From the human T2T-CHM13v2.0 reference genome, Homo sapiens, in contig CP086569.2 of assembly GCA_009914755.4 (NCBI GenBank), positions 5,504,001-5,568,000 on the forward strand: a stretch of DNA of 64,000 nucleotides, in the 5' to 3' direction. The notes under the pieces were generated by a model. That model had not been told where the DNA came from and did not search any database. It saw nothing but the letters and a program-made list of their open reading frames with translations. Positions 9,290 through 63,520 of the stretch are shown here, piece by piece (within the stretch, counting starts at the first letter, position 1; every line of letters begins with the position of its first letter). A program made the position numbers and the translations under genes.

Positions 9290-10330
9290 GATAAATCCAC
9301 AAAGACTGGGAGAAACCAGAGCAGAAAAGCTGAAAATTCTAAAAACCACAGGGCCTCTTCTCCTCCAAAGGATCGCAGCTCCTCACCAGCAACGGAACAA
9401 ACCTGGATGGAGAATGACTTCGACAAGCTGACAAAAGTAGGCTTCAGAAGGTCAGTAATAACAAACTTCTCCGAGCTAAAGGAGGATGTTTGAAACCATT
9501 GCAAGGAAGCTAAAAACCTTGAAAAAAGATTGGACGAATGGTTACCTAGAATAAACAGTATAGAGAAGACCTTAAATGACCTGATGGAGCTGAAAACCAT
9601 AGCATAAGAACTATGTGACAAAGGCACAAGCTTCAGTAGCCGATTCGATCAAGTGGAAGAAAGGGTATCAGTGATTGAAGATCAAATGAATGAAATAAAG
9701 CGAGAAGAGAAGTATAGAGAAAAAAAAGTAAAAAGAAATGAACAAAGCTTCCAAGAAATATGGGACTATGTGAAAAGACCAAATCTACGTTTGATTGGTG
9801 TACCTGAAGTAACGGGGAGAATGGAACCAAGTTAGAAAACACTCCTCAGAATATTATCCAGGAGAACTTCCCCAGTCTAGCAATGCAGGCCAACATTCAA
9901 ATTCAGGAAATACAGAGAACACCACAAAGATACTCCTCGTCAAGAGCAACCCCAAGACACATAATTGTTAGATTCACCAAGGTTGAAATGAAGGAAAAAA
10001 TGTTAAGGGCAGCCAGAGAGAAAGGTGGGGTCACCCACAAAGGGAAGCCCATCAGACCAACAGAGGATCTCTTGGCACAAACTCTACAAGCCAGAAGGTA
10101 GTGGGGGGCCAATATTCAACATTCTTAAATAAAAGAATTTTCAACCCAGAATTTCATATCCAACCAAACTAAGCTTCATAAATGAAGGAGAAATAAAATC
10201 CTTTACAGAGAAGCAAAGGCTGAGAGATTTTGTCACCACCGGGCCTGCCTTAGAAGAGCTCCTGAAAGAAGCAATAAACATGGAAAGTAACAACCAGTAC
10301 CAGCCACTGCAAAAACATACCAAATTGTAA
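9290..10330 (+). pseudogene. L1 ORF1 (RNA-binding protein) remnant, interrupted by stop codons and frameshifts
   Basis: Track ORFs 9653-9835 and 9883-10101 match L1 ORF1p (EDQMNEIKREEKYREKKVKRNEQSFQEIWDYVKRPNLRLIGVPE; RATPRHIIVRFTKVEMKEKMLRAAREKGGVTHKGKPIRPTEDLLAQTLQARR). Several in-frame stops break the reading frame. Confidence 0.85.
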
Positions 10331-10393
10331 AGACCATTGATGCTAGGAAGAAACTGCATCAATTAATGGGCAAAATAACCAGCTAACATCATA

Positions 10394-14163
<3,770 letters not shown>

Positions 14164-19600: not shown

Positions 19601-20056
19601 TAAATAAATACCATAAACGAAATACCCACAGCTAATATCGTACTCATTTGTGAAACACTGAAAGCTCTTCTGAGGATTCCTGCTTTAGCCATTTCTATTC
19701 ATCATAGTCCTGGAAGCCCTAACAAGGAGATTATGCAGGAAAAAAACCTACAAGCACCCAAATTGGAAACTACATGGAAAATTATCTGTTTTCGCAGGTG
19801 ACCTAACATTATATGTAGAAAACCCTAAATATTACACAAAAAATAATCTGTCAGAGATAATAGACAAATGTATCAAAGTTTCAGAATACATAGTTACCAT
19901 TCAAAAATCAGTTGTATTTGTATACAGTAACAATTAAAAAATTATTCTATTTTCAATAGCATCAAAAAGAATAAAATACTTATGAATAAACTTAGCCAAG
20001 AAGGTAAAGGACATACATCAAAAAACCATAAAACATTACTGAAAGAAATTAGGGAC
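16690..20056 (+). mobile_element. Old L1M-type LINE-1, 5' portion (ORF1, ORF2 endonuclease and the start of RT), interrupted at 20056 by the ERV-L insertion
   Basis: Degenerate ORF1-like sequence at 16690-17250 (...MGMPEGEEKWENKIFK...). ORF2-like sequence continues to ...NKILMNKLSQEGKGHTSKNHKTLLKEIRD at 20056. The element is very A-rich and highly diverged. It resumes after the provirus at 26570. Confidence 0.7.
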
Positions 20057-20508
20057 TGTGATGGTTAATATTGAATGTCAACTTGATTGGATTGAAGGAT
20101 GCAAAGTATCGGTCCTGGCTGTGTCTGTGAGGGTATTGCCAAATGAGATTAACATTTGAGTCAGTGGACTGAAAAAGGCAGACCCACCCTCAACATGGGT
20201 GGGCACAATCTAATCAGTTGCCAGTGCAACCAGAATAAAAGCAGGCAGAGGAATGTGAAAAGACAAGTCTGGTTTAGTCTTGTGTCCTACATCTTTCTTC
20301 AGTGGTGGATGCTCCCTGCCCTTGAACATCAGACTCTAAGTTCTTCAGCTTTGGGACTCAAACTAGCTTACTTGCTCTGCGGCTTGCAGATGGCCTACTG
20401 TGGGACCTCACCTTGTTATTGTGTGAGTCAATACTCCTTAATAAACTCCTCTTTATATATACATCTATCCTATTAGTTCTATCCCTCCAGAGAACCCTGA
20501 CTAATACA
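20057..20508 (+). repeat. ERV-L 5' LTR, MLT2 family
   Basis: Begins tgtgatggttaatattgaatgtcaacttgattgg. Contains ...caacatgggtgggcacaatctaatcagttg... Ends ...atctatcctattagttctatccctccagagaaccctgactaataca (TG...CA termini). Homologous to 26119-26569 and to the solo LTR at 53716-54275. Confidence 0.8.
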
Positions 20509-20514
20509 AATTTT

Positions 20515-20532
20515 GGTACCAGAAGTGGTTCT
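20515..20532 (+). promoter_or_regulatory. Putative primer-binding site (tRNA-Leu-like) immediately 3' of the 5' LTR
   Basis: The 18-mer tggtaccagaagtggttc sits 6 nt after the LTR end. ERV-L elements use a tRNA-Leu PBS of the form TGGTRYCAGRAGTGG. This is a recollection-based match, not a computed one. Confidence 0.4.
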
Positions 20533-21195
20533 AGAGCAATAGAATATCAAGATGGAGTTATTTTGTTGGTTTTGGGGTTTCTGGAGTTGGCTACTTAATA
20601 TGGATTAGGCCTCAAAATGCTAAGGACTCTACTTCTAACTGTATGAAGAACACTGATAGTCCTTACCGTGAACTGTTTGGAGAGTTATGCATAATGAACA
20701 CATTTGATACTTCTGATTTCACTGCTCATGAGAGGCAAGGAGGTTAGTTACTCTACATAATACCTTTGATCATATGTGGAGAACCAAGGATATAATAAAG
20801 TTGGTTGGTTGCTTCTGAGTTCACTGGAAAGGGATGAAAGAAAATGATGAACTCAAGGATTCCAACTCCTGGCTTCAGAAGCAGACACGGAGCCTTAAAC
20901 CTTCTAAGACTGCTCTGAGTGAGAGTATTATCTCTTGTAGGAAAAGAACTGAAATTGTGGAAAATCAGACACAAGTTCTTATCATGTAAGCAGCTGACCT
21001 GCAACAAAAGGTGCATGCACAGCCTTTCCAGGTGTCTACTGTTAAAGTGAGGGCATTGATTCAAAAAGAATGGGACCCTGAAACTTAGAATGGGAATGTG
21101 TGAGAGGACCCTGATGAGGCTGGGGACATTGAGCTTGTAAACTCTGATGAGACTTTTTTGCCAGAAAACAAAAAACAGCTTCCCTATCCCCAGTA

Positions 21196-22290
21196 GTGGC
21201 AATATCCCCCCTGCCCCAACCCATGCTGCCATCAGCCTTTCCACCTTTGTCTGAGGAGATAAACCCTGCACTGCCTGAGGCAACAATGATGGCCTCCCCT
21301 GAGGCAGTTGTCAGCAAGACAATGCTGATTCTCCTCAGGAGCCACCCCCAACACCCCTGTTTGCATCTAGTCCTGTAACTAGACTAAAGTCCTGGCTGGG
21401 CCCCAGAGGTGAGGTTCAGAGTGTGACACACGAGGAGGTACACTACACTCCAAAAGAACTGATTGAGTTTTCTAATTTTTATAAGCAGAAATCTGGAGAA
21501 CAGGCATGGGAATGGATATTAAAGGCGTGCAATAATGGTGGAAGGAACATAGAATTGGATCAGGCTGAATTTATTGATTTGGGCCCACTAAGCAGGGGCT
21601 TTGCATTCAATGTTGCAGTTTGGGGAATTAAAAAAGGTTCCAATAGTTTATTTGCTTGGTTAGCTAAAATGTGGATTAAAAGATGGCATATTGTGAATGA
21701 GCTGGAAATGCCTGATCTTCCTTGGTTTAATGTGGAGGAAGGGATCCAAAGGCTTGGTGAGATTTGGATGCAGGAGTGGATTAGTAAATTTAGACCTACT
21801 CATCCTAGCTGGGAGGGTTCAGAAGATATACCCTTGACCAATATTTTGTTAAATAGATTTGTGAGGACAGTACCTGCATCCTTGAAGAGCTCTGTTATTG
21901 CTCTTCTCTGTATGCCAGATCTTGCAGTAGGAACCACAGTCACTCAACTACAAAATGGGAATAATTGGATCCCGAGGTGGCAGAGGCCAAGTGGCAGCAC
22001 TCAAACGTCAAAGGCAAGGTGGGCATAGGTACGATAATGGAAAGCAAAGGCAGAGCAGCAATCAGAATAGTCTGACTCTTGTAGAGCTCTGGCATTGGCT
22101 AATTAATCACAGTGGTCCTAGAAGTGAAATTCACAGGAAGCCTACTGCACTCTTACTTAATTTATATAAGCAGAAAACTTCCAGGCCAAGTGAACAAAAG
22201 ACAAATTTGAATTATAAAAATAGAGAATCATGGCGCCTCCATCAATTTCCAGACTTGAACCATTTTACAGACCCAGAACCACTTGAATGA
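21196..22290 (+). pseudogene. ERV-L gag remnant
   Basis: Track ORFs 21423-22028 (201 aa, MTHEEVHYTPKELIEFSNFYKQK...) and 21955-22290 lie in the expected gag position upstream of protease. They are frame-broken. Confidence 0.55.
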
Positions 22291-22308
22291 AGGGGAAGCC
22301 AGTTCCCC

Positions 22309-25300
22309 TTGGGGAAGGACCCCACTACACTACCAACAATTTATGCTGTTAATTTTTCTTCCATCTTTTACCAAGGAGACCTCCAGCCTTTTACCAGGGT
22401 AACTATGCATTGGGGAAAGGGAAATAATCAGACCTTACAAGGACTGGACACAGTCTCTGACCTGATGTTGATTCCCAGGGACCCAAACGTCATTGTCGTC
22501 CTCTAGTAAAAGTAGGGGCTTATGGAGGTCAGGTAATTAATGGAGATTTAGCTGAGGTCTGACTTACAGTAGGTCCAGTGGGTTCCCAGACTCATCCTGT
22601 TGTCATTTTCCCAGTGCCAGAATGCATAATTGGCATAGATATACTGAGCAGCTGGCAGAATCACCACATTGGGTCCCTGACTGGTAGGGTGAGGACTATT
22701 ATGGTGGAAAAAGCCAAATGGAAGCCATTAGAGCTGCCTCTACCTAGAGAAATAGTAAATCAAAAACAATATTGCATCCCTGGAGGAATTGCAGAGATTA
22801 CCACTACCATCAAGAACTTGAAAGACGCAGGGTGGTGATTCCCACCACATCCCCATTCAACTTTCTTATTTGGCCTATGCAGAAAACAGGTGGGGCTTGC
22901 AGAAAGACAGTGAATAATTGTAAGCCTAACCAAGTGGTGACTCAAATTGCAGCTGCTGTACCAGATGTGGTTTCATTGCTTGAGCAAATTAACACATGTC
23001 CCAGTACCTGGAATGCAGGCATTGACTTGGCAAATGGTTTTTTCTCCATCACTGTCCATAAGGCCCATCAGAAGCAATTTGCCTTTAGCTGGCAAGGCCA
23101 GTAACATAACTTTACTGTCCTACCTGAGGGGTACATCAGCTCTCTGGCTTTGTGTCATCATTTTGTTTGAAGAGCTCTTGATTCCTTTTCCCTACCACAA
23201 GATTGATCCATTACATTGATGACATTATGCTGGCTGGATCCAGTGAGCAAAAAGTAGCAAACACACTGGACTTATTGGGAGACGTTTGTGTGCAAGAGGA
23301 TGGGAAATAAATCTGACTAAAATTCAGGGACCTTCTATCTCAGTAAAATATCTAGGGGTTATGGGGTGTGGGGTCTGTCAAGATATTCCTTCTAAATTGA
23401 AGGATGAGTTGCTGCATTTGGCCCCTCCTACAACCAAGAAAGAGGCACAACCTATTTAGATTTTGAATACAACACATTCCTCATCTGGGAGTGTTACTCT
23501 GGCTCATTTATCAAGTAACCAAAAAAGCTGCCAGTTTTGAGTGGGGTCCAGAAGAGGAGAAAGCTCTGCAACAGGTTCAGGCTGCTGTGCAAGCTGCTCT
23601 GCCACTTGGGCCATATGACCCAGCAGATCCAATAGTGCTTGAGGTGTCAGTGGCAGATAGAGGTGCTGTTTGGAGCCTTTGGCAGGTCCCCATAGGTGAA
23701 TCACAGCAGAGGCCTCTAGGATTTTGGAGCAAGGCCTTGCCATCTTCTGCAGATAACGACTCTCCTTTTGAGAGACAGCTCTTGGCCTGTTACTGCGCTT
23801 TGGTAGAAACTGAACGTTTGGATATGGGTCATCAAGTTACCATGAGACCTGAAGTGCTTATCATAAACTGCGTGCTTTCTGACCCATCTAGCCATAAAGT
23901 GGGGCATGCACAGCAGCATTCCATCATCAAATGAAAGTGGTACATATGTGATAAGACTAGAGCAAGTCCTGAGGGCACAAGTAGGTTACATGAGGAAGTG
24001 GCTCAAATGCCCATGGTCCCCATCCCTGCCACCCTGTCTTCTCTCCCCCAGCCTGCACTGATGGCCTCATGTGGAGTTCCCTATGATCAGTTGACAGAGG
24101 AAGAGAAGACAAGGGCCTGGTTTACAGATGGTTCTGCACAATATGCAGGCGCTACCTGAACATGGACAGCTGCAGCACTGTAGTCCCTTTCTCGGACATC
24201 CTTGAAGGAAAGTGGCAGAGGGAAATCTTCTCAGAGGGCAGAACCTTGAGCAGTGCACCTCATTGTGCACTTTGCTTGGAACAAGAAATAGCCAAATGCT
24301 TAATTATATACTGATTAATGAGCTGTAGCCAATGGTTTGCCCGGATGGTCAAGAACTTGGAATAAGCATGATTGGAAAATTGGTGACAAAAGAATTTTGG
24401 GAAGAGGTATGTGGATGGACCTCTCTGAGTGGTCAAAAATTGTGAAGACATTTGTATCTCATGTAAGTGCTCACCGAAGGGTGACCTGAGCAGGGGAGGA
24501 TTTTAATAATCAAGTGGATAGGATGACTCATTCTGTGGATACCACTCAGCCTCTTTCCCCAGACACTCCTGTCATCGCCCAATGGTCCCATGAACAAAGG
24601 GGCCATGGTGGCAGGGATGGAGGTTATGCATGGATTCAGCAACATGGACTTCCACTTACCAAGGTGACCTGGCTATGGCCACTGCTGAGTGCCCAATTTG
24701 CCAGCAGCAGAGACCAACACTGATCCCTCGATATGGCACCATTCCTTGGGTAATTAGCCAGCTACTTGGTGATAGGTTGATTACATTGGACCTCTTCAAT
24801 CATGGAAGGGGCAGAGGTTTGTCCTCACTGGAACAGACACTTACTCCGGATATGAGTTTGCCTATCCTGCACACAATGCTTTTGCGAAGACTACATCCAT
24901 GGATTCACGAAGGTCTTATCTACCATCATGGCATTCCACATAGCACTGCCTCTGATCAAGACACTCACCTTACAGCTAAAGAAGTGTGGCAGTGGGCTCA
25001 TGCTCATGGAATTCACTGGTTTTACCATGTTCCCCATCATCCTGAAGCAGCTGGATTAATAGGATGGTGGAATGGCCTTTTGAAGTCACAATTACAATGC
25101 CGACTAGGTGACAATACTCTGCAGGGCTGGGGAAAAGTTCTTCAGAAGGCTGTGTGTGCTCTGAATCAGCATCCAATATATGGTACTGTTTCTCCCGTAG
25201 CCAGGATTCATGGGTCCAGGAATCAAGGGGTGGAAGTGGAAGTGGCACCATTCATCATCACTTCTAGTGACCCACTAGCAAAATTTTTGCTTCCTGTTTC

Positions 25301-25385
25301 CTCGACATCATGTTCTGCTGGACTTAAGGTTGTAGTTCTGATGGAGGAATGCTGCCACCAGGAGACACAACAACAATTTCATTGA
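22309..25385 (+). pseudogene. ERV-L pro-pol remnant (protease, reverse transcriptase, RNase H, integrase), fragmented
   Basis: Protease GIDILSSW at 22578-22838. RT spans 22772-23934 (SPFNFLIWPMQKTGGACR; LIHYIDDIML at about 23190-23240; ASFEWGPEEEKALQQVQAAVQAALPLGPYDP). The RNase H motif WFTDGSAQYAG at about 24110 is followed by a stop. Integrase spans 24514-25385 and includes an intact 251-aa ORF (...ECPICQQQRPTLIPRYGTIP...HGIPHSTASDQDTHLTAKEVWQWAHAHGIHWFYHVPHHPEAAGLIGWWNGLLK...). Confidence 0.8.
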
Positions 25386-25774
25386 ACTGTACATTAAGAT
25401 TGCCACTTGGCCACTTTGGGATCCTTCTACCTCTATGTCAACAGGCTAAGAAGAGAATTACAGTGTTGTCTGGGGTGACTGACCAGGGCTATCAAGTTAA
25501 AATCAGTCTACTACTCCACAGTGGAGGTGAGGAAGAGTATGTGTGGAATACAGAAACATTTTTAGGGTATCTCTTAGTATTACCATGCCCTGTGATTAAG
25601 GTCAATGGGAAATTACAACAGTCCAATCCAGGCAGGACTACAAATGGCCCAGACCTTTCAGGAATGAAGGTTTTGGTCATTGCACCAGGTGAAAAAACAC
25701 AACCTGCTAAAGTGTGTGCTGAAGGTAAAGGGAATACAGAATGGGTAGTAGAGAAAAGCGGTCATCAAAATTAG
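25349..25774 (+). pseudogene. ERV-L dUTPase domain: an open 141-aa ORF at the pol C-terminus, downstream of integrase
   Basis: The ORF reads MLPPGDTTTISLNCTLRLPLGHFGILLPLCQQAKKRITVLSGVTDQGYQVKISLLLHSGGEEEYVWNTETFLGYLLVLPCPVIKVNGKLQQSNPGRTTNGPDLSGMKV... It carries dUTPase-like motifs (GVxDxxYxGEI-like VLSGVTDQGYQVKISLLL). The position after integrase is characteristic of ERV-L. Confidence 0.6.
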
Positions 25775-26118
25775 CTACAACCACGTGACCAGTTGCAGAA
25801 TCAAGGACTGTAATTGTCATGAGTATTTTCTTCTTATTTTGTTAAGAACATGTTTGTGCATGTATACACTGTACTAAGAAAATATCTTCAATTTATTTCC
25901 TTTTTATTTTATCATGTGACATAAGATTTATTGACTTCATATCAACATTTAAGTGTTATTAACTATGTAATAGCATTTGTGTTAGCGATTGGTGCATTTC
26001 CTACTGTACAAAAGACAGTTGTATTATGTTAGGTGTAATTATGACCTTATTATTGTCTTTACTTAAGATTATGTATGATTTCAGATGTGTATGAGTTCAA
26101 GTTGACAAGGGGTGGACT

Positions 26119-26569
26119 TGTGATGGTTAATGTTGAGGGTCAACTTGATTGGATCGAGGATGCAAAGTATTGCTCCTGAGTGTGTCTGTGAGGGTGTTGC
26201 CAAAGGAGATTAACATTTGAATAATTGGATTGGGAAAGGCAGATCCACCCTCAATATGGGTGGGCACAATCTAATCAGCTGCCAGTGCAGCCAGAATAAA
26301 AGCAGGCAAAAGAAAATGAAAAGACTAGACTAGTTTAGTCTTCTGGCCTACATCTTTCTCCCATGCTGGAAGCTTCCTGCCCTTGAACGTCAGACTCCAA
26401 GTTCTTCAGCTTTGGGAACCGGACTAGCTTCCTTGCTCCTCAGCTTGCAGACTTCTTATTGTGAGACCTCACCTTGTGATTGTGTGAATCAGTATTCCCT
26501 AATAAATTCCCCTTTACATATACATCTATCCTATTAGGTCTGTCCCTCTAGAGAACCCTAATAGATACA
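26119..26569 (+). repeat. ERV-L 3' LTR (MLT2 family), preceded by a purine-rich tract
   Basis: Begins tgtgatggttaatgttgagggtcaacttgattgg. Ends ...atctatcctattaggtctgtccctctagagaaccctaatagataca. A polypurine-like gacaagggg lies just upstream at about 26105-26113. Confidence 0.8.
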
Positions 26570-50830: not shown

Positions 50831-53715
50831 GTAATATATAAATATATAACAAATAATAAAATGAAAATATATAGCATAGTGTAATCCATAATATTTTTAT
50901 AATTTATATAATATTGGAGAATATAACTTGAAAAGAACTGGAGCTATAGCTACTGATTTTTTTGCCATAAGAATATGTTTATTTTGGAAGTGATTTTAAT
51001 TCTTTAGCCACAATGTCCCTATATTTTTACATTACCCCTTATTTTTCCATACTATTTATACATTAGATACAGAATTTGTTAGAAGTTAAAAGGGAAAAAC
51101 ACATTCTTTTGCTGAACAATAGCTCATTATATTTAACTTAAAAATTATTAGCTTGTTGAATATCAAAACTTGAAGCTGCTGGGAATCACATTTATTCTTA
51201 GGTTCCAAAATAGTTCTGAGTTCTCAGTAGGAAACCATCTTTTATAAACTATAACAAAACTCTCATCTCAAAATTAAATACTATAAATTGACACAACTAT
51301 ATCTATATTGAATGTCTTTATAATATCCAGAAACCTACTGGCTTTTTAGAAATACAATGAAAATAGATTTACATTCTGGCTTTATAAATCAATTTTTATT
51401 TTAGAAAATTTTAAACATATAGAGAATACTATATGAAACACCACATATTCAACATCTTTAATATCATTTAACCAATAATGTTCTAGTATATATCTCTAAA
51501 ATTCACACCTAAAGAAAACACAGAAAACATGTTTATCACTTATTAACATTTAATAATAATTTCTACAATAAAGTATCACTGAGCCTATTTCTCCAATTTC
51601 TTCATAAACATTTTTTACAGATGTTTTTTCAAATCAGAATCCAAAGAGGCTCTGCACATGCCATATTCCTGGAGTGTTTCCTAAGTGTACTTGACTCTGT
51701 ATGTTCACTGTATTTGTTGGAAAAAGTCACTGGTACTCCTGAGATCAGCAGGGATCAGCATCATCTGGGAACTTGTTAGAAATTAAGTTCTCAGGAAACA
51801 CCCCAAACCTATTGAACCTGAAACTCTAGAGTTAAGAGCCCAGCAATATGCTGATGCATGCTAAAGTTTAAAACCTACTACTATAGTTCTACACACTCAA
51901 GATTTTATAGATTGTATTTTCATGATACCATCTAATATGTTGATCTATCTCCCGTATGTCATACAGATTGTGGTTCTCAGGTACAATTGTTTGGTAATGA
52001 AAATTCATATATAGTGGGTTTCTTTAACTTTCCATAGAATCATATACAAAGATTCATAATGTCCTGTTGTCTCCTTTTACAGTGATAAAAAGTTTGATCA
52101 GTAAGTCAAGTGTGCCAGCTTCATTCATCAATTCATTATTAAATTATCCATTAGCTTTTCACATAATAGTTTCAGCATCCATTTATGATCATTTCTCAAA
52201 TCTGTGATTTCACTAGAATTTGCAAAATGGGACTATACTAATTCTTTCAATTTGTTATTTGTTAGCAGAAGCAATTTTTAAAAACATTTTGCACTGTTTG
52301 GTTACCCTGAGGAACAATTTGTACAAGAGAAGCAGGAAAACTGCCTGACTCTTTCCTTTGCCAGTTTCCAAAACTGGTTCCACAGAAACCTGCAAACTGA
52401 AGTTGTTTTTTCAAATCAACATAATTAATTCATGAATTTGCAATATATTTTATGTGTTTCTATCCACTGCAGTTATTATTACTTTTGATGCTCATATTAT
52501 CTGAACTTTGGCTAGCAGGAAACTCTTTAGGCATCTGAATCCTTTTAACATGATGCAAATCATTTCTTTTTATAGCTTCCCTGTTTTCTGGCATGACAAC
52601 ATGCTCCAGGCTCATTTTGTACATATTGTTCACCACACCCTTTTTTTTTTTATTATTTCTCCAAGACTCTCTGGTTGCCTTAATTGGAAAAATCATAGAG
52701 TTCATCATTGCAAATTTAGGGCAACTCATCACATATATGTTTGTCTTTTTTTTTTCACAGTAGAAATCAAGAAAATAGATTTATAGATTTTAGAATTTAT
52801 ATCATAAATTCTTACTGATATTTTCCATTTAAAATTAGGAGTTCAGAGTATAAGTATCTGTTTAATTATACTGAAAGTCTTAGCTTCCAATGACATTAAC
52901 ACAAATATTTATTTGCTTTCTCTGGCAATATCTACAGAAAAGTTTCCAAATAAAATGATCAATATTGTTAGTAAAAATATAATCATAAGTCAGTTTAATG
53001 TTTCTTTGCATTTTCTTTTGTCCTTAGGATAATCCCTACTAAGGATACGTAGATAATTCATTTTAAAGTCATTTGAAATAATTATCTGTGAGTATAGGCC
53101 TCCAACGAGATACACAGTTCAGATGATATAATTTTTGTATTTTATTTTTAAGTACTGATGTTTCATTTTGATTTCATTTTGTTTATAATGTGTAAGACAT
53201 TTATATACTACCAAAGTCAAATGTATAAGCATGGTAAACTGTCTTCCATTTCCATCCCCTGCACCCTGTCCCTACCACTTTTTATTTAGGTGAACTTTTT
53301 GCTAATTTATTTTAGTATTACCTTATTTTTTGTAAAGAAAAAATAAACAAATATGTATAGATATAGATATGCCCATCTTTCTTAAGTGCAAGTTAGCAAA
53401 CTGTACAAATTGTTATGCATGTGCCCTTTCTCACTTTGTAACGTGTTTTGGATGTCATTCCATAATAGTATACAGAAGTCTTCCTTATTTCTTTTTACAT
53501 TTGCACAGTATTTAATTGTTTGGCTGCTCAATTGTTTTCTTAAACAGTCCCCTGTTACTGGACATTCAGATTGTTTCCAGTTGTTTGCAGTGACAAAACT
53601 AGTGCTGTAAGCAATAATTATGTGTATACATATTTTTATATTTTTTGCTAGATGGCTTTGAGATAGATTCTTAGAAGTGGACTCAGAGTCAAAAGTAAAT
53701 AAACGTGTTTGGCCA

Positions 53716-54275
53716 TTGTGATGGTTAATATTAAGTGTCAACTTGATTGGATTGAAGGATGCAAAGTATTGTTTCTGGGTGTTGCCAGGATAGATTAACA
53801 TTTGCATCAGTGGGCTGGGAGAGCAAGATTCACTCTTACTCAGGAAAACACACCCACAATGTGGGTGGGCACCATTCAATTGCCTGCCAGTGTGGCTAGA
53901 AAAAGCAGGAGAAGAAGGTGGAAGAAGCTGACTTGCTGAGTCTTCCAGCCTTCATCTTTCTTCTGTGCTGGATGCTTCCTACTCTTAAATGTGAGAGTCC
54001 AAGTTAGTTGGCTTTTGGACTCTTGAACTTATACTAGTGGCTTGCCAGGGGCTCTCGGACCTTCAGACACAGACTGGAGGCTGTATTGCTAGCTTCCCTA
54101 CTTTTGAGATTCTGGGACTTGGACATAGCCACTACGGGCTTCCTTGCTGCTCAACTTGCAGACAGCCTATTATGGGACATCACCTTGTTACTGTGTGAGT
54201 CATGTCTCCTCATAAACTCCCTTTCATATATACATGTATCCTGTTAGTTCTGTCCCTCTAGATAACCCTAATAAA
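53716..54275 (+). repeat. Solo ERV-L LTR (MLT2 family) flanked by a 5-bp target-site duplication GCCAT
   Basis: tgtgatggttaatattaagtgtcaacttgattggattgaaggatgcaaagtattg...acaatgtgggtgggcaccattcaattgcctgccagtg...cttgcagacagcctattatgggacatcaccttgttactgtgtgagtcatgtctcc...tgtatcctgttagttctgtccctctagataaccctaataaa. gccat lies immediately 5' (53711-53715) and immediately 3' (54276-54280). Confidence 0.8.
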
Positions 54276-54789
54276 GCCATCCTACAAAAATGTGATGGAC
54301 CCTCACCCAAAATTTGGTTTGGATATCAAGGCTGATGGTGCCACATATGCACCAAGAGGGTATAAAAAGTTCTATTACTCACACAATGAGTTTTTCTGAG
54401 AAGAACAGGGCAATGTCTCAAACATAAATAAGGATGCCTTGAGAAAGTGGAGAAAGGAGACCAGTTTGTTTTTTATGGTAGCTGGGAGTGGGGTTAGGGA
54501 AAGAACTACTGCATAGGGGTTAGCACTTGTGTGTTTTGAACTTCCTACTGACACCAAAGGTAAGAGCATCGAGGCTTCCTCATCAGCTTGCCCAGATGTG
54601 TGTGGAAGGGCAAGTGGGAGTTGTTGGGCTTAAAAGTTGTCTGCTGTCCATTACAAAAACTTGAGTCAGACCCTTTTTGTTAGATCTTGACAAATTCTAC
54701 TCCAAAGTGGTTGTACCCTTTTGTAGTGCCGGATTGCCTATTTTTTCCATAGCTTTGTCCCCAAAAAACAAAACAAACAAACTAACAAA

Positions 54790-57005
54790 CAAACTATGTG
54801 GTCAAGCTTTTGAATTGTTAATAATCTGATAAGTGAGAAATGGAATGACCATGTAATTTTAATGTTAATGTATTCTGGTAGCTTGTATACATTTTTATAT
54901 GTTTAAGCCGTGGCTAATATGCCCTTATCTTATGCCTATTTTCTGTAAGGCTATTACTGTTTTCTTCTCTTTTTTTACAAGCTGTTTGTATATTATTGAC
55001 ACTGTTTTTCTGTTATATAACTTACATAATTTTTTTAATTTATTTTTTTGCTGATGGTGCTTTCTTTCTGATGAAAGATTTTTTAATTAAATGTTATCAA
55101 ACTTACTAGTATTTTCTCTTACAGAATCTGAATTTTGGTCTCTACTAAGAAAATAACTCTTCTAAATTTGCATCTGAGGTTATTATATATTTTTATGTAC
55201 TTTATTCATCCATTAGGAATTCTATATTGTCTCTATTAATCTCCTCCTAGACATATCTATGCATTTTAACACTGTTTAAATAATAACACATAAAACTAAA
55301 AGTGGAGTTATCCAGTGTCCATAATAAAATCTACCAATTACTTTGGTAAAATGGGTCTAGAAATCAGGTGGAGCTCAGCAATAATAAGAAAACTGATTAA
55401 TCGTGCCCATCTGACTCATTTTACGTTAAACCTAATGGTTTATTTAACTGACAGCTAGTGTCTCCTTTTAGGATGATTTGAACAGTAATTTAGTGTAATT
55501 TGAGCTTGAGAAGGTACTGATGATATAACAGAAAGATGTGGGTTCATCAATTGGTAGCTATATTTAGGATGATTTTATGGTATTCCAAAATTCTGTACTT
55601 TTGGGGGATTTTGTTGCCTGAAGTGAATGTGGTATAAAGAAGCTGTCATTAAATCTTAGTGATTCAAGGAAACCCAATCTTATATAACTTGCCAAGGAAT
55701 ACATAGCCAAATAGTATTCAATCTCTGAGGAAAAACAGCTGTGTTTTGACATTTTGCATAAACTTTGAAAGTAAAACAAAAAATATTTGCTTAAACTGTC
55801 CTTTCAGATGCTCAGAGTACTTATTGTTTCAAAAGTTTTTTTCTAAAACATGATGCTGTGTGTTCTTTTGCTTTAAAGCAGGCATTTGGTAATTTTGACA
55901 TGGTATTATAAAAATTTACTTTTGAGTCACCTAGCTTCAGAAATCTCCTAAACAATTTACATGTGAAAAACACACTTACACAAGTGAAGTGAGTTACATT
56001 ACAACAAACCTTTTCTACTAGCATTCCCTTTTAAGAGCAAGAAAAAAAATGAAGTTTGGCAACATGATTTAACAGCTGCATATAGTATTTATGCTAAAGA
56101 AATCACATAGCAGATTTTCAGTTACCCACAGAAGGAAGTCCAAGGAGAGCACACAATTAAGCTACACAGATAATCATCTCAACCATGAGTTTCAACCATC
56201 TGAGCTGTCAGTAATTAGCCAATTTTTATTTCACTACTACCCTGGCTATTCTCCCCAGGAACATTACAAGAGATATTCAATAATGACGAACAACAGTGAA
56301 TTATTAGTAACATGAAATATTCCATATTCTGAATGAATATTGTATATTAATTCTTAAATGAGAAACATGATATATCAATGAACAACAAGAGATAGAAATT
56401 GTTGATAGGACAAATTTAATATAAACACTTTGCTTGAAGGATAGAAAGGAGCTTATGTGGGATGGAGCAGCGTACTCAAAAGGACAAATAGCTAAACATT
56501 CTCATAATTTCTTCCACAATAAAATAATGCAATCTTTCCATGAACACACTTTATTTTCTATGTTTCCATAGCCTAAACGCATTATTTGAAACGGCCATTG
56601 ATGTATGAAGACTCGGAAGTAATCATGTGACTATTATAATTTATAGCAAATGTTGAATGGACAGTTTTAGAACACTTTGTAGTGTTTTTGTGATCCATAA
56701 TATATGGCTATCTTCAAAGTTAGCAATTACTTCTTGCACTTTTTTTCTGCTTGTGAAGACTTCAAATTGATCCTTTTTCTAATATTTAGTTCATCTCCCA
56801 AATAATTACTTAACTTTTATCAGCAGCATCTTTTTTGTCTTAATTGGTTCATGATACTATGTCAAAAAGTGATTTAAAAATCTTTCAGTGTCAGAAATGT
56901 AATAAGGAGGGGTGGAAATTATGCTAAACTGTATTTTACTACAAAGGTCATAGTTTCACTTCCAAAATACCATTGCTGCTCTGCTGCAGTTAATTATTTC
57001 CATTC
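54790..57005 (+). repeat. Local segmental (tandem-type) duplication, copy 1 (sub-segments X 54790-55140 and Y 55150-57005)
   Basis: Direct, high-identity match (about 93-96% by eye) to 57030-57365 (X') and 59290-61150 (Y'). For example, taatctgataagtgagaaatggaatgaccatgtaattttaatgttaatg matches 57050-57100, and ctattaatctcctcctagacatatctatgcattttaacactgtttaaataataacacataaaactaaaagtggagtt matches 59380-59460. The interval contains no recognisable TE coding sequence. Confidence 0.8.
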
Positions 57006-57029
57006 AAAAATGTAAGGCCAAGCTTTTGA

Positions 57030-60000
57030 TTTGTGTCAAGCTTTTGAATTGTTAATAATCTGACAAGTGAGAAATGGAATCACCATGCAATTTTAATGTT
57101 AATGTATTTTGTGAGGTTGTATACATTTTCATATGTTTAAGCTGTGGCTAATATGCTCTTATGCCTATTTTCCTATAAGGCTATTGCTGTTTTCTTCTTT
57201 TTTTACAAGCTCTTTGTATATTATTGATATTAACTATTTTTCTATTATATAACTAACATGATTCTTAAATTTTTTTTGCTGATGGTGTTTTCTTTCTGAC
57301 AAAAGACTTCTTAAATGTTATCAAACTTATTAATATTTTCTCTTACAGAATCTGAATTTTAAGAAGAAAATATTCATTTCTCACAGGTAATAGGTTAAAT
57401 CATCCTTGCCTTCTTCTACTACTGGTATTGTGTTTCACTTAACTTTTCAATCTTTTCAACCTCTGATCTGCTTGAAACACATCAAGGTGTATGGTGTGAG
57501 GAACAGATCAAATTTTGACTTTTGTGTTTTGCTGCTGTGTAGTTCCAACATCACTAATTTAAAAAGCCCATCCTTTCTCCTAATTGTTGTGAGATGTCAT
57601 ATTTGTCATATATAACTTTTTTTTATTTCTTGACTGTTTTTTTCTCTTCCACTGATCCACGTAACTATGTATATGCAAATACTCCACTGATTTAATAAAA
57701 GAAACATGATAATATATTTTGACATTTGGTAGGATTTACCCTCCTATCAACATTGCTATTTTTCAAGGTCCTCCTAAGTATTCTTACTTGTTGGTTTTAT
57801 CAAATGAATCCTAAAACCTAGGCTCATAAAAATGCTTGATGGCATTTTTATTGGAATAGTCTCACATTTAGGTAACTCAAGGAAAATTGACATAATAATG
57901 TTGATTCTTTATTTTCAAGACCACAGTATTCTACTAATTTTGAAAACATTTGTACCACTAAAGATATCAGAAACTTCCTTTGCAAAAATTATAACTGAGA
58001 CAATTTTTACAGTGAAAGAGATATGACATAACTGACTCCACCTAGCTTCGAACCTTAAAGTTGTCCTTCATTCTTGGGAGTAGGCCAAACTATCTTTGGG
58101 AGAAACTTAGTTTATGGTTTAGAAACAAAGACAATAATAGCCCTTTCCCAAAACAAATTCCCTTCCTGCCTGGGGACTACACTGCCTTTGCAAGACTAAC
58201 AGATTAGTCACAAAATTAGAAATTATGGTTTAGGAATCATGTAGCTGGAGGCTGCAAGATTCTTAACCTCCCCAAATTGCTCCTGGAGATAACATCACTA
58301 TTGTGAAATGTAAGATCACTGCTTGACATATTTTGCAGACTTTGCATTCGATGTACCAGCAGGCACTATCCAGATTAATCAACTAGCTTGTCTGGTCTTG
58401 TGGCCCCTCATCCAGCAACTGACTCAGGTCAAGAGGACAGCTTTAACTCCCTAAGATTTCATCTCCAACCTGACCAGTCAGAACTCCTGTCAAACTATCT
58501 TCAAAAATTCCAGTCCCTGAATTCTCAGGGAGACTGATTTGAGTAATAATAAAACTTTGGTTTCCTACACAGCTCGCTCTGTGTGAATTACTCTTTCTTT
58601 CTTGCAGCTCCCCTGTCTTAATAAATCAGCTCCGTCTAGACAGTGGGCAAGGTGAATCTGTTGGGTGGTTACAAGACTATTTAAGTCCTCACTTTATGTC
58701 TTTGATAGGTTCATGGAAACAGCTACATTAAATGAAACAACGTATATAACAAAACCATTTTTTTTCTCTTCATCATTATGTTATTCAAGGACCTGCTGTA
58801 TGTTGCTTCACTTAATGTTGCAGTTTCCAAGAACCTATCCATGATATTGACAACATACATTACATACGAAGCATGGAGTTTAACATGAAGAGTGTGTGTT
58901 CTACATGAGGGAAGGAGAAAGAACCACACATTTGGTAACAACAAGACGGCAATCCTGCATGAACTTCTGTGGCCACCTACATTCCGTTTTCCTCTATTTC
59001 TGGGAACACAGGGGAATTTTTTTTCCATCTCATGCAGTTTAGTGGGGTTATCTGCTACGACGACATGAGCATGTATTTTGACTAATACATAAGAACTGTA
59101 TATTTTCTTTTTTATAACTCTGGTGCCCTGTACATTGTATAGACAATTAGAAAATATGTATTAAAAGAATAAAAGTAATCATATTAGAAATTCCAGCAGT
59201 ATTATCCCATGGACTCACATAATTTTTCCATTGTAAATACAGTTAAATATTCAAAGTTGTATTATATATTAGTTTTTCATTAACCTACAATTTTCTTAAC
59301 ACTTCTAAATTTGAATCTGAGATTATTATACATTTTTCTGTACTTTATTCATCCATTAGGAATTCTATATTGTCTCTATTAATCTCTTCCTAGTCATATC
59401 TATGCATTTTAACACTGTTTAAATAAAATAACACATAAAACTAAAAGTGGAGTTGTCCAGTCTTCATAATAAAATCTACCAATTACTTTGGTAAAATGGG
59501 TCTAGAAATCAGGTAGAGCTCAGCAATAATAAGAAAACTGATTAATCGTGCCCATCTGACTCATTTTACGTTAAACCTAATGGTTTATTTAACTGACAGC
59601 TAGTGTCTCCTTTTAGGATGATTTGAACAGTAATTTAGTGTAATTTGAGCTTGAGAAGGTACTGATGATATAACCGAAAGATCTGCGTTCATCAATTGGT
59701 AGCTATATTTAAGGAAAGATGATTTCATGGCATTCCAAAATTCTGTACTTTTGGGGGATTTTGTTGCCTAAAGTGAATGTGGTATAAAGAAGTTGTCATT
59801 AAATCCTAATGATTCAAGGAAACCCAATCTTATATAACTTGCCAAGGAATACATAGCCAAATAGTATTCAATCTCTGAGGAAAAACAGCTGTGTTTTGAT
59901 GTTTTGCATAAATTTTCAAAGTAAAAAAATTTGCTTAAACTGTCCTTTTAGGTGCTCAGAGTACTTATTGTTTCAAAAGTTTTTTTTCTAAAACATGATG

Positions 60001-61150
60001 CAGTATGTTCTTTTGCTTTAAAGCAGGCATTTGGTAATTTTGTTAAGGTATTATAAAAATCTACTTTTGAGTCACCTAGCTTCAGAAATCTCCTAAACAA
60101 TTTACATCTGAAAAACACACTTACACAAGTGAAGTGAGTTACATTACAACAAACCTTTTCTACTAGCATTCCCTTTTAAGAGCAAGAAAAAAAATGAAGT
60201 TTGGCAACATGATTTAACAGCTGCATATAGTATTTATGCTAAAGAAATCACATAGCAGATTTTCAGTTACCCACAGAAGGAGGTCCAAGGAGAGCACACA
60301 ATTAAGCTACACAGATAATCATCTCAACCATGAGTTTCAACCATATGAGCTGTCAGTAATTAGCCAATTTTTATTTCACTACTACCCTGGCTATTCTCCC
60401 CAGGAACATTACAAGAGATATTCAATCATGAGGAACAATAATAACACGAAATATTCCATATACTGAATGAATACTGCATATTAATTCTTCTTAAATGAGA
60501 AACATGATATATCAATGAACAACAAGAGATAGAAATTTTTGATAGGACAAAGTTAATATAAACATTTTGCTTGAAGGATAGAAAGGAGCTTATGTGAGAC
60601 GGAGCAGCATACTCAAAGGACAAATAGCTAAACATTCCCGTAATTTCTTCCACAATAAAATAATGCAATCTTTTCATAAACACACTTTATTTTCTATGTT
60701 TCTAAAGCCTAAAAGCATTATTTGAAACGGCCATTGACATATGAAGACTCGGAAGTAATCATGTGACTATTATAATTTATAGCAAATGTTGAATGGACAG
60801 TTTTAAAAAATTTTGTAGTGTTTTTGTGATCCATAATATATGGCTATCTTCAAAGTTAGCAATACTTCTTGCAGTTTTTTTCTGCTTGTGAAGACTTCAA
60901 ATTGATTCTTTTTCTAATATTTAGTTCATCCCCCAAATAATTACTTAACTTTTATCAGCAGCATCTCTTTATCTTAATTGGTTCATGATACTATGCCGAA
61001 AAGTGATTTAAAAATCTTTCAGTGTCAGAAATGTAACAAGGAGTGGTGGAAATTATGCTAAACTGTATTTTACTACAAAGATCATGGTTTCATTTCCAAA
61101 GTGCCACTTCTGCTCTGCTGCAGTTAATTATTTCCATTCAAAAATGTAAG
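57030..61150 (+). repeat. Local segmental duplication, copy 2 (X' 57030-57365; insertion of about 1.9 kb at 57366-59285; Y' 59290-61150)
   Basis: Collinear with copy 1 apart from the 57366-59285 insert. The insert contains an LTR-like segment at about 58030-58680 (...gactgatttgagtaataataaaactttggtttcctacacagctcgctctgtgtgaattactctttctttcttgcagctcccctgtcttaataaatcagctcc...). Confidence 0.8.
58030..58680 (+). repeat. Possible solo LTR (ERV/MaLR-like U3-R-U5 with aataaa signals) inside the copy-2-specific insert
   Basis: Two aataaa signals at about 58545 and about 58622, a TG/CA-like arrangement and an LTR-like composition. Family not assigned. Confidence 0.3.
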
Positions 61151-62379
61151 GGCAGGATTACCACATATTCCGTTATTTCTAAAAGAAGCCACTAATAGCA
61201 TGATTTTAATGGTTACGAAGATTAATATTTTTATCATCTTTGCGTTCTTTATACTTAAAGAGCAAAATTGCATAGTACAGATAATCTATCCCTTAAATGT
61301 GTAATTAAACTTTTCGTGTGGACACATAGTTTCACACTTTGGTTCAATAACTAATTACATATTTAAACTTGCCCTTTCTCATCGTTAATGCCACATGCTG
61401 ACCACAAAGACAATACCCGTTTACTAAGAAAATTTTGTTTGACACAGTAATACCATTTACCTTGCTTTGAAATACAATTTCTCATTGTTCTGCTATACTC
61501 TTTTTTTTTTGCATCGTACCCACAAAACTGGAAACATTTCTCAACGGTTTCCATTAAAAACAGAAAAAGAAATAATTAGCTCATATTTATATGAAATAGA
61601 TAATTCATAAATTCTATAAGACACTCAGAACAAACACTATGATGCTAGCAGAAGAAGCAAGCATAAAATAAGTACAATCTCTCAAGGATATATTGATTCT
61701 CTCACAGCTTAGCTTGCACACAGGCTAATGATGACAATATTGTGGCATGAAACCTAAGAGTGTATGTGTGTGTGGGGGTGTACGTGCATGTTAGAGAGAC
61801 AGAGCCTGCTTTTTAAATCTACAACAGATAAGTCCAAAAAGTTTACCTTTTACATGCACACACACACTTATCACACGCTTATCATCTTAGGACCTTTTAA
61901 TATCTATTTATAAACATGTCTCAGGAGAATGTTAAACAGTAAATTGATTTTCATTTAGGCCTTTTTTTTCTAACCACATGCTATAGAAGTATGTGTTAGT
62001 GAAATATTTAGGAGAAAATATAACAAATTTTATTTGAATACTTGCTTTAGAAAACCAGCTGCATATGCTATAGAGTAGGAAGAGATTGCCTAGGTAAACT
62101 TCTGTAGTTCAAATCTTGAAGAAAACTAAAGGTTAAACACTGAGGAGACATTTCAAGTCTAGTGATTCCCTGAGTTCTCTTTAAAATACTTGCAACATGC
62201 ACACCATAAATATGCTAGAGAATGTATTTTAAGATATTAAGAAGACATAGGAATGTTAATTTAAAACCCCATGGAACAGAAATAGCCATAATGTCCTGCC
62301 CTACCTCACCCACATGGAGTAAATAGTAGGGGTTGATGCTACTGGCTAACTGAATGCTAAGACTGGAAAAAAGCAAAAG

Positions 62380-63520
62380 AGTCTGAAAAGTAAAATATCA
62401 AGTGTTAATTTCAACCCAAATCCTGCCACACTTTTTACGAGACAACATCAGACTCATTGTATGAGACATATTCACATGTTTGATGCTCGTTGTTAAGCAC
62501 ATACATATTAAGGATTGTTATACTTTCTTGGAGAATTGATTCTTTTATCATTATGTAATGCCCTTCTTTAGTTTCGATATTTTTCCTTACTCTCAAATCC
62601 GCTTTGTCTGAAATTAATATAGTTACTGCAGCTTTCTTCTTGTTAGTGTTGTTAGCATGGCATATGTTTCTCCATCACTTTACTTTTATGCATCATAATT
62701 TTCTGCTTCTTTGCATATTTAATAATTTTTTACTGAATGGTAGATATCAGTGAATATTATGGTGTTGAGTGTCTAAATTTGTTTTCCTACATTAGCTAGA
62801 TTTGAATTATGTTTAGACAGGCAGTTAAGTTACTTACAGATCAGTTTAATCCTTCTCTACTGAAAAATCTATCATACAAAGAGTTTTTTCAACCTGATTG
62901 GCCAGGATTTAAATGTTTCCCAACTCTGTGTAATTTCTGGGAATTCTTCAAGTCAGGACTTTCCAGTTATGTCTTGCCTCATGGAATTTCATCTTATGCA
63001 CGCACAGCTTTTTATTGAGCAAAAAATTCAAAGGCTTTTCTATGCAGATTTGTGAAGCTCTTCCACTGTGCTATTCCTTCAACTCTGGTACTCTACACCA
63101 CAAATTCCAAAGTTTAGCCATCTAAACTTTCCAAAATTTCAATTCTGGTCTTCTCAATCCAGGGAGATGACTGGTATTTTCCTGAGTTTACCTTTCCTAT
63201 TTCTCTGTCTGGGGTATTGTGGTGCTTACCTTCTTTTATCCCTTCACTGATTACGGTTCTATGCTACATGTTTGCCAACGTCTGCAGACAGTATTTTATC
63301 TGTATTTTCCAGTTTTGTAATTTTTTCTGAAAGGAGGGCAAGTCCACTACCAGTTATTCTATTAAAGTAGGAAAGATTTCATCTTTCATTTTTAATATAC
63401 CAAATTTACAATATTTTGTAATAAAATAATCACTTATGATAGTCCATGTTTTTATTTATTACTATTTGCTTTTCTTAGTTGTATTTAACTATAAAATAGA
63501 CTTCCTGGAACCACCGCCCC
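62380..63520 (-). mobile_element. Old L1M-type LINE-1 5'-region fragment on the - strand, paralogous to 44990-46150
   Basis: The reverse complement of 62500-63500 is collinear with 45000-46100 at about 85-90% identity. For example, 63247-63370 matches the reverse complement of 45150-45270 (ctgattacggttctatgctacatgtttgccaacgtctgcagacagtattttatctgtattttccagttttgtaattttttctgaaaggagggcaagtccactaccagtta). Also 62500-62640 matches the reverse complement of the ORF2 start region 45960-46100 (gatttgagagtaaggaaaaatatcgaaactaaagaagggcattacataatga). Confidence 0.65.

What the first reader, a model, noticed from the sequence alone, without database searches (positions are those of the whole stretch)
54790..61150. 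Local direct duplication of a roughly 2.2 kb non-TE unit, with one copy split by a 1.9 kb insertion
Segments X (54790-55140) and Y (55150-57005) recur as X' (57030-57365) and Y' (59290-61150) in the same order and orientation, at roughly 93-96% identity. Neither unit resembles a known transposable-element coding region. This looks like an old tandem segmental duplication. X' and Y' are then separated by the extra 57366-59285, which contains an LTR-like stretch, so that piece was inserted in copy 2 or deleted from copy 1. Such low-copy tandem duplications are substrates for copy-number variation.
Basis: seen in the sequence. Interest (0 to 1): 0.5.

Follow-up and report, generated by a model that had tools for sequence, protein, structure and literature searches.

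The report
Old tandem duplication with internal deletion
A roughly 4 kb stretch of repeat-rich, non-coding primate DNA was copied head-to-tail long ago and the left copy lacks 1.9 kb of it; this is a real but ordinary small segmental duplication.

Summary
X (54801-55136) recurs as X' (57035-57360), and Y (55154-57020) recurs as Y' (59297-61154), in the same order and orientation. Ungapped identity is 91.9% for X and 95.7% for Y. Neither has another copy in the 64 kb window.

It is ancestral. Degenerate antisense LINE-1 ORF2 homology runs unbroken from X' into M (nhmmer E 6e-8; 0 of 300 shuffles reach the score). Copy 2 therefore keeps the original X-M-Y order, and copy 1 lacks M through deletion or through being skipped during the event.

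The claim that neither unit resembles TE coding sequence is wrong for X, which is a decayed L1 ORF2 C-terminal fragment. It holds for Y. The unit as a whole is not a transposon: it has no terminal repeats, poly-A tail or target-site duplication.

The Y|X' junction carries a 14-nt stutter that copies the start of X. A (CAAA)n repeat abuts the left breakpoint. These features point to non-homologous, microhomology-type formation.

Divergence is K2P 0.044-0.086, about a third to a half of that between the LTRs of an ERV-L provirus in the same window.

One oddity remains: two perfect tracts of 159 and 173 bp in Y, explained by gene conversion or by constraint.

Genome-wide copy number could not be tested. 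The finding is ordinary and of low interest.

The parts
54762..54796 (.). (CAAA)n simple repeat abutting the left breakpoint of the duplication. It is present only beside copy 1, not at the Y|X' junction.
   Evidence: Tandem Repeats Finder, period 4, 8.2 copies. Junction sequences printed.
54801..55136 (+). X: left segment of copy 1. By descent from X' it is a decayed LINE-1 ORF2 fragment lying antisense (L1 sense strand = window minus strand).
   Evidence: Matches 57035-57360, E 9e-111. 91.9% ungapped identity. Weak direct L1 hits: 13472-13562 ~ 55018-54926 and 54863-54808.
55137..55153 (.). Scar where M is missing in copy 1: about 9 nt of unmatched filler (GGTCTCTAC), followed by TAAGAAAATAAC. 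The latter resembles the first bases of M (TAAGAAGAAAATA) and runs into the start of Y.
   Evidence: Alignments; junction strings. No convincing template for the filler was found nearby.
55154..57020 (+). Y: right segment of copy 1 (1867 bp). Unclassified non-coding sequence.
   Evidence: Matches 59297-61154 at 94.1% with gaps, E 0.0. No Pfam domain in six frames. No relative elsewhere in the window. No Rfam family.
55371..55529 (.). Perfect 159-bp tract shared with 59516-59674. It retains two CpGs in both copies.
   Evidence: Run lengths, permutation test, CpG table.
55964..56136 (.). Perfect 173-bp tract shared with 60109-60281.
   Evidence: Run lengths. Permutation test: P(longest>=173)=0.013, P(second>=159)=0.0002.
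57021..57034 (.). Head-to-tail junction between copy 1 and copy 2. CCAAGCTTTTGATTTGT is a near-repeat of the first 17-18 nt of X' (GTCAAGCTTTTGAATTGT) that follow it.
   Evidence: Read directly from the sequence. The flank B after Y' (GCAGGATTACC...) shows no such motif.
57035..57360 (+). X': left segment of copy 2. Antisense LINE-1 ORF2 fragment.
   Evidence: Lies inside the single nhmmer alignment 57730-57043 to a profile of three in-window L1 copies, E 6.2e-8. 0 of 300 dinucleotide shuffles reach the score.
57361..57929 (-). Left part of M: continuation of the same antisense LINE-1 ORF2 fragment towards the element's 5' side, roughly ORF2p residues 809-1040.
   Evidence: nhmmer hits to both in-window L1s: 57487-57929 ~ 13210-12746, E 4.5e-6, and ~38871-39147, E 1.2e-4. 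Collinear tblastn pieces. The reference was verified as L1 ORF2p.
57969..58673 (+). Solo-LTR-like element inside M, about 705 bp, ending in ...TACA. Its partner copy in the window begins TG.
   Evidence: 75% identity to 7139-6444, E 4e-128; alignment. No target-site duplication was recognisable.
58705..58837 (.). 133-nt palindromic hairpin element inside M, flanked by TA on both sides. Looks like a Tc1/mariner-type MITE; this is inferred.
   Evidence: Fold: MFE -44.3 kcal/mol, z -7.3. The arm matches only its own partner in the window. Sub-threshold Rfam hit MIR2599: 48.6 bits against a gathering score of 120.
58838..59296 (.). Right part of M: unclassified sequence that is missing from copy 1.
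   Evidence: No Pfam domain. No relative in the window.
59297..61154 (+). Y': right segment of copy 2 (1858 bp). Homology ends at ...AAAATGTAAGG, after which the unique right flank begins.

Best explanation
This is a neutral structural relic with no demonstrated function.

The ancestral locus read A - X - M - Y - B. X plus the left part of M was one old, antisense, decayed LINE-1 ORF2 fragment. That fragment carried a later LTR insertion, followed by unclassified sequence.

The roughly 4.1 kb block X-M-Y was duplicated head-to-tail. The mechanism was non-homologous, either microhomology-mediated end joining or a replication-based template switch. The left break fell inside the L1 fragment, next to a (CAAA)n run. 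The right break fell in unique sequence. The junction carries a short stutter copied from the start of X.

The proximal copy then lost the 1.9 kb M block by a simple deletion, leaving a short filler scar. The result is today's A-X-Y-j-X'-M-Y'-B.

The copies have since drifted 4-8% apart. Two short tracts in Y were kept or made identical, most simply by interlocus gene conversion.

Shown: the duplication, its borders, the L1 continuity across X'|M, and the uneven spread of differences.
Inferred: the order of events, the repair pathway, and gene conversion.
For: - Direct collinear matches with E 0.0 and 9e-111, and no other copies in the window.
- One continuous nhmmer alignment of an L1 profile runs across the X'|M boundary: 57730-57043, E 6.2e-8, 0 of 300 shuffles reach it. 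M-left alone matches both in-window L1s as far as 57929.
- tblastn pieces are collinear over L1 12767-13801 against window 57908-57026.
- The reference element is a genuine L1. It matches human ORF2p in the PDB at E 1e-102 and 5e-50 and Pfam RVT_1 at 2e-9.
- There is no homology between the flanks at the breakpoints, so no repeat pair is available for unequal crossing-over.
- Junction stutter and filler scar. (CAAA)n at the left break.
- Divergence is K2P 0.044 (Y) and 0.086 (X), against 0.156 for the LTR pair of the ERV-L-like provirus in the same window.
- Non-random perfect tracts in Y.
Against: - X/X' is about twice as diverged as Y/Y': 8.1% against 4.3%, Fisher p 0.007. Against Y without the two perfect tracts the contrast is 5.2%, p 0.047. 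X also has more indels. A single event with uniform neutral drift does not predict this. It needs gene conversion in Y, or a higher mutation or alignment-error rate in the T-rich, low-complexity X.
- Continuity of the L1 leftwards from X into flank A rests on weak hits only: tblastn E 0.29, and nothing for 54274-54800.
- No outgroup or population data could be consulted. The order of events (duplication, then deletion) and the single-locus status are therefore inferred.
Confidence: 0.62

Rival explanations
1. One-step complex rearrangement. A single replication-based template-switching event (FoSTeS/MMBIR type) copied X, skipped M, copied Y, then jumped back to the start of X and continued. 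The duplication and the 'deletion' would then have arisen together.
For: Both novel junctions carry short non-templated or locally templated material. There are about 9 nt of filler at X|Y, and a 14-17 nt near-copy of the adjacent X start at Y|X'. This is typical of template switching or polymerase-theta joining; that link is my own knowledge, with PMC12426944 read at title and abstract level only. No homologous repeats lie at the breakpoints.
Against: After 4-8% divergence the junctions cannot be read precisely. No convincing template for the X|Y filler was found within about 7 kb: the best was a 12-mer at 61422, roughly 0.1 expected by chance on my estimate. The Y|X' stutter could equally be a later 18-nt slippage duplication. 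Two simple events explain the same structure.
Confidence: 0.25
2. Two duplications of different age. An older small tandem duplication of X (plus about 13 nt of M) came first. A younger copy of Y was later inserted exactly at the X|X' junction.
For: X/X' shows about twice the substitution divergence and about 4.5 times the indel density of Y/Y'.
Against: It requires an insertional duplication of Y to land precisely at a pre-existing junction. The contrast weakens to p 0.047 once the two perfect tracts are removed. X is 26% GC with long T runs, where alignment error and slippage inflate the differences.
Confidence: 0.07
3. X-Y is an unannotated interspersed repeat (a composite transposable element or a transduced unit) that happened to insert twice side by side.
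For: Genome-wide copy number could not be measured with these tools. X is TE-derived.
Against: - The unit has no terminal inverted or direct repeats, poly-A tail or target-site duplication at its ends.
- In copy 2, X' is contiguous with more L1 sequence rather than with Y.
- There is no third copy in 64 kb.
- Y has no TE protein remnant.
- Two Y 27-mers are absent from the prokaryote-genome and metagenome collections. An Alu 23-mer finds 74 human-contaminated contigs in one of them. This test is weak and excludes only very high copy number.
Confidence: 0.04
4. Assembly artefact: two haplotypes or mis-joined reads represented in tandem.
For: None specific. It cannot be excluded without reads.
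Against: The copies differ by 4-8% and by 16 indels, far above allelic variation. One copy carries a 1.9 kb block that the other lacks. The junction is a clean, unique sequence.
Confidence: 0.02

Closest known systems
Small intrachromosomal (tandem) segmental duplication, in the operational sense of >1 kb and >90% identity (definition as quoted in PMC10172114)
   Same: Y/Y' is 1.87 kb at 94% identity with gaps (96% ungapped). The copies are direct, adjacent, and arose by duplication rather than transposition. Uneven identity compatible with interlocus gene conversion is typical of such pairs.
   Different: It is at the very small, old end of the class. One copy carries an internal 1.9 kb loss. 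No gene or exon was recognised in it. X/X' alone (336 bp) would not qualify.
Non-recurrent microhomology or replication-based rearrangements (FoSTeS/MMBIR; polymerase-theta-type end joining with templated insertions)
   Same: The breakpoints are not in paralogous repeats. Short filler or locally copied sequence sits at both novel junctions. A simple repeat lies beside one breakpoint.
   Different: These mechanisms are defined on fresh events with exact junctions. Here the junctions have aged by 4-8%, so microhomology length and template origin cannot be established.
Decayed LINE-1 (ORF2 C-terminal part) carrying a nested solo LTR
   Same: X, X' and the left part of M align antisense to L1 ORF2. 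The LTR-like block interrupts or abuts the fragment, which is the usual nested-repeat pattern in mammalian DNA.
   Different: The L1 is only passenger sequence. The duplication border cuts through it, and Y is not L1.

Membership tests
Segmental duplication (operational definition) | Paralogous stretches longer than 1 kb | tested here: met
   Y is 1867 bp and Y' is 1858 bp. X/X' (336/326 bp) falls below the length limit on its own.
Segmental duplication (operational definition) | More than 90% sequence identity | tested here: met
   Y/Y' is 94.1% with gaps and 95.7% ungapped. X/X' is 91.9% ungapped but 86.5% with gaps.
Segmental duplication (operational definition) | Arose by duplication of genomic DNA, not by transposition; low copy number | tested here: inconclusive
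   Structure argues for duplication. The arrangement is head-to-tail, the unit border lies inside an L1 fragment, and the unit has no TE termini. There is no third copy in the window. Genome-wide copy number is not measurable here; only Alu-scale abundance is excluded.
Tandem duplication | Copies adjacent, in the same orientation, with the end of one joined to the start of the next | tested here: met
   Y ends at 57020 and X' starts at 57035, with a 14-nt junction between them. All matches are direct and no inverted repeats were found.
NAHR (unequal crossing-over between flanking repeats) | Homologous repeats at both breakpoints, with a hybrid repeat at the junction | tested here: not met
   The alignments of A|X against Y|X' and of Y|X' against Y'|B show no shared repeat beyond the unit itself.
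Transposable-element copy (the unit as a TE) | Terminal repeats or a poly-A tail, plus target-site duplication at the unit's ends | tested here: not met
   None at 54801, 57020, 57035 or 61154.
Transposable-element copy (the unit as a TE) | Many dispersed copies in the genome | not testable with these tools
   No host genome is available. The indirect scans were negative but have low power.
LINE-1 fragment (X, X' and M-left only) | Collinear homology to L1 ORF2 | tested here: met
   nhmmer E 6.2e-8, with 0 of 300 shuffles reaching the score. E 4.5e-6 and 1.2e-4 against two separate L1 copies. The reference was verified against PDB ORF2p. The translated remnant itself gives no Pfam or PDB hit, so it is heavily decayed.
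Solo LTR (57969-58673) | Full-length LTR homology, TG...CA termini and a short target-site duplication | tested here: inconclusive
   Roughly 700 bp of homology to a second copy at 6444-7139. The 3' end is ...CA and the 5' end reads AG (TG in the partner copy). No target-site duplication could be recognised.
Processed retrocopy (copy 1 as a spliced copy lacking M as an intron) | GT...AG (or CT...AC) at the borders of the missing block; poly-A tail; target-site duplication | tested here: not met
   M's borders read AAGAAG.../...CTTAAC, with filler at the copy 1 joint, and there is no poly-A tail.

The most novel reading that the evidence does not exclude
The two perfectly identical tracts in Y/Y' (159 bp at 55371-55529 and 173 bp at 55964-56136) might be products of purifying selection on a duplicated regulatory element or non-coding exon, rather than of gene conversion. 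The first tract keeps both of its CpGs in both copies. By eye it is dense in homeodomain-, AP-1- and bZIP-like motifs. On this reading the duplication doubled a functional non-coding element.
Probability: 0.08. Interest if true: 0.35.

Novelty: already known. Interest (0 to 1): 0.1.

Why it matters
It matters little. It is a clean small example of how primate intergenic DNA accumulates layered events:
- an L1 insertion
- an LTR insertion and a hairpin element within or beside it
- a non-homologous tandem duplication
- an internal deletion
- possibly gene conversion

It also shows that passenger repeats can settle the 'insertion or deletion?' question without an outgroup.

The practical consequence is limited. 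The two Y copies (1.9 kb, 96% identical, 4.1 kb apart) could in principle mediate a 4.1 kb deletion or duplication polymorphism. However, the longest perfect match is only 173 bp, and no gene, Rfam family or Pfam domain was found in the 7.6 kb region.

Tried and rejected
- Pfam on the translated minus frames of X, X' and M-left found no L1 domain. A PDB sequence search with the same frames returned only a chance hit. The L1 remnant is too decayed for protein-level detection, and DNA profile search was needed.
- tblastn of the six frames of 54001-61600 against the rest of the window found only the LTR relatives.
- Pfam on all six frames of Y and M-right found nothing.
- Rfam found nothing at gathering threshold in the window. 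At E<=1 over 54500-61400 it found only a sub-threshold miRNA-model hit on the hairpin in M.
- Exact-product look-ups of two ORFs (56091-56315 +, 58723-59028 -), aimed at fetching orthologous or other contigs, found nothing on record.
- Exact 27-mer scans for Y in metagenome and prokaryote-genome collections, as a crude copy-number or contamination probe, gave 0 hits. The Alu control gave 74 loci. BLASTN of the region against those 131 kb of contaminant DNA found nothing. Power is low.
- I tried to show L1 continuity from X leftwards into 54274-54800. The result was only a weak tblastn piece and a separate L1 3' fragment at 53485-53622 (E 1e-6) whose spacing does not fit simple continuity. This is left open.
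- I searched for a nearby template of the X|Y filler. Only short AT-rich matches turned up, at about the chance level.
- Copy 1 as a spliced retrocopy was rejected, because M's borders carry no splice signals.
Full report
**Setting**

The window is primate DNA.
- An Alu 23-mer occurs at 39333 and 48972, against 0 expected by chance.
- A young LINE-1 lies on the + strand at about 9720-14400. Its ORFs match human L1 ORF2p in the PDB at E 1e-102 and 5e-50 and Pfam RVT_1 at 2e-9.
- A second L1 lies on the - strand at about 37900-42500.
- An ERV provirus lies at about 20053-26559. It has RT-RNase H, weak (below-cutoff) integrase and a weak (below-cutoff) dUTPase hit downstream of integrase. From my own knowledge this is an ERV-L-like layout.
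- The window is AT-rich throughout, and no Rfam family reaches threshold anywhere in it.

**1. The observation**

It is correct. The repeat finder and BLASTN show two direct, collinear matches.
- X 54801-55136 ~ X' 57035-57360, E 9e-111.
- Y 55154-57020 ~ Y' 59297-61154, E 0.0.

Global alignments give:

| Pair | Mismatches / aligned sites | Gaps | Ungapped identity | K2P |
|---|---|---|---|---|
| X/X' | 26 / 321 | 7 | 91.9% | 0.086 |
| Y/Y' | 79 / 1847 | 9 | 95.7% | 0.044 |

Copy 2 has an extra 1936 bp (M, 57361-59296) between X' and Y'. No other copy of X or Y exists in the 64 kb, whether by BLASTN or by nhmmer at maximum sensitivity.

**2. What the pieces are**

*X, X' and the left part of M are one decayed LINE-1 ORF2 fragment, lying antisense.*
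- Sensitive BLASTN of the in-window L1 against the region gives collinear minus-strand hits:
  - L1 12957-13277 ~ 57731-57411
  - L1 13479-13560 ~ 57239-57157
  - L1 13472-13562 ~ 55018-54926
- tblastn pieces extend this to L1 12767-13801 against 57908-57026.
- A profile built from three in-window L1 copies gives one continuous nhmmer alignment, 57730-57043, E 6.2e-8. It crosses the X'|M border at 57360/57361 in register.
- None of 300 dinucleotide shuffles of 57030-57980 scores above 0.3 bits, against 19.4 for the real sequence.
- M-left alone matches both L1 copies out to 57929 (E 4.5e-6 and 1.2e-4).
- Mapped through, the remnant covers roughly ORF2p residues 809-1156, and X itself roughly 1044-1130.
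- At protein level the remnant is too decayed for Pfam or PDB detection.

*The rest of M.*
- An LTR-like block lies at 57969-58673. It is 75% identical to 7139-6444 and ends in ...CA.
- A 133-nt near-perfect hairpin lies at 58705-58837, flanked by TA on both sides (MFE -44.3, z -7.3). It has a sub-threshold Rfam hit. I read it as a MITE-like element; this is an inference.
- The remainder of M is unclassified.

*Y.*
- It has no Pfam domain in any frame.
- It has no relatives in the window.
- It has no Rfam hit.
- It has no ORF above 76 aa.

**3. Insertion or deletion?**

The L1 homology runs unbroken from X' into M. M is therefore the ancestral neighbour of X. An insertion could not recreate that continuity.
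- The original unit was X-M-Y, about 4.1 kb.
- Copy 2 preserves it.
- Copy 1 lacks M.

M's borders carry no splice signals, and copy 1 has no poly-A tail, so copy 1 is not a spliced retrocopy.

**4. Junctions and mechanism**

- Left break: directly after a (CAAA)n run at 54762-54796.
- Right break: after ...AAAATGTAAGG, in unclassified sequence with no relative elsewhere in the window.
- No repeat is shared between the breakpoint flanks. Unequal crossing-over between repeats is therefore not supported.
- The head-to-tail joint (57021-57034) reads CCAAGCTTTTGATTTGT, a near-copy of the following GTCAAGCTTTTGAATTGT.
- The X|Y joint in copy 1 has about 9 nt of filler, followed by bases resembling the first bases of M.

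These features fit non-homologous, microhomology-type joining or template switching. That link comes from my own knowledge of FoSTeS/MMBIR and polymerase-theta joining; I read the review PMC12426944 at title and abstract level only.

The structure alone cannot say whether the duplication and the loss of M were two events or one. I favour two simple events (0.62) over a one-step complex event (0.25).

**5. Age**

K2P is 0.044 for Y, about 0.052 p-distance for Y without its perfect tracts, and 0.086 for X. The LTR pair of the provirus in the same window gives 0.156. The duplication is thus about a third to a half as old as that insertion.

With assumed rates of 0.5-2.2e-9 per site per year, the range is about 10-86 My. 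The central values, at 1e-9, are 22-43 My (arithmetic; the rates are from my own knowledge).

**6. An irregularity**

The differences in Y are not evenly spread.
- There are perfect runs of 173 bp and 159 bp.
- Random placement of the 88 differences gives P = 0.013 for the longest run and P = 0.0002 for the second longest.
- A coarse 200-bp block test does not reach significance (p = 0.18).
- X is more diverged than Y (p = 0.007). Against Y without the two perfect tracts the contrast is p = 0.047.

The simplest reading is patchy interlocus gene conversion, which is well documented in duplicated DNA (PMC10172114, PMC4467073). Purifying selection on both copies is the less likely alternative. 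It cannot be tested without outgroups.

**7. Comparison with known kinds**

Y/Y' meets the operational definition of a segmental duplication, >1 kb and >90% identity (as quoted in PMC10172114). It is tandem. Nothing distinguishes it from the many small, old, intrachromosomal duplications in primate genomes.

- Two Y 27-mers are absent from the two large non-host collections.
- An Alu 23-mer finds 74 human-contaminated contigs.
- This excludes only very high copy number.

**Verdict**

The feature is real and its anatomy is now resolved.

Noticed in passing
window 58705-58837: A 133-nt near-perfect hairpin with arms of about 45 nt, flanked by TA on both sides. MFE is -44.3 kcal/mol and z is -7.3. 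Rfam gives a sub-threshold, full-length match to the miRNA-precursor model MIR2599 (48.6 bits against a gathering score of 120, E 2.7e-7). It looks like a palindromic Tc1/mariner-type MITE sitting in the block missing from copy 1.
   Followed up: partly
window 55371-55529 and 55964-56136 (= 59516-59674 and 60109-60281): Two perfectly identical tracts between the duplicates, longer than random placement of the differences allows (P 0.013 and 0.0002). The first keeps two CpGs in both copies. The cause is either gene conversion or constraint, and this is unresolved.
   Followed up: partly
window 20053-26559: An ERV provirus with an LTR pair (20053-20498 / 26114-26559) that is 85.7% identical, K2P 0.156. 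Its ORFs hit RT-RNase H confidently, and integrase and dUTPase only weakly (below Pfam cutoffs), with the dUTPase hit downstream of integrase, which is an ERV-L-like layout.
   Followed up: partly
window 53716-54273: A solo LTR related to the LTRs of the provirus at 20-26 kb (69-82% identity). It lies about 530 bp left of the duplication. An old L1 3' fragment sits just left of it at 53485-53622 (nhmmer E 1e-6).
   Followed up: partly
window 45016-46077 and 62471-63499: An inverted pair of about 1.05 kb at 83% identity. The right member overlaps a hit to the 5' part of L1 (62687-62492, nhmmer E 4e-11), so the two are probably copies of the same L1 subfamily region in opposite orientation.
   Followed up: no
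window 6444-7139: A second copy, in inverted orientation, of the LTR family found inside M (75% identity over 700 columns). It begins TG and ends CA.
   Followed up: no
loci L001-L074 (genome contigs): The Alu 23-mer control found 74 stretches in prokaryote genome records. These include several 8-17 kb contigs of one 'Roseivirga sp.' MAG (CBDIHZ01...) with up to six Alu matches per contig, which points to human contamination of public bacterial assemblies.
   Followed up: no
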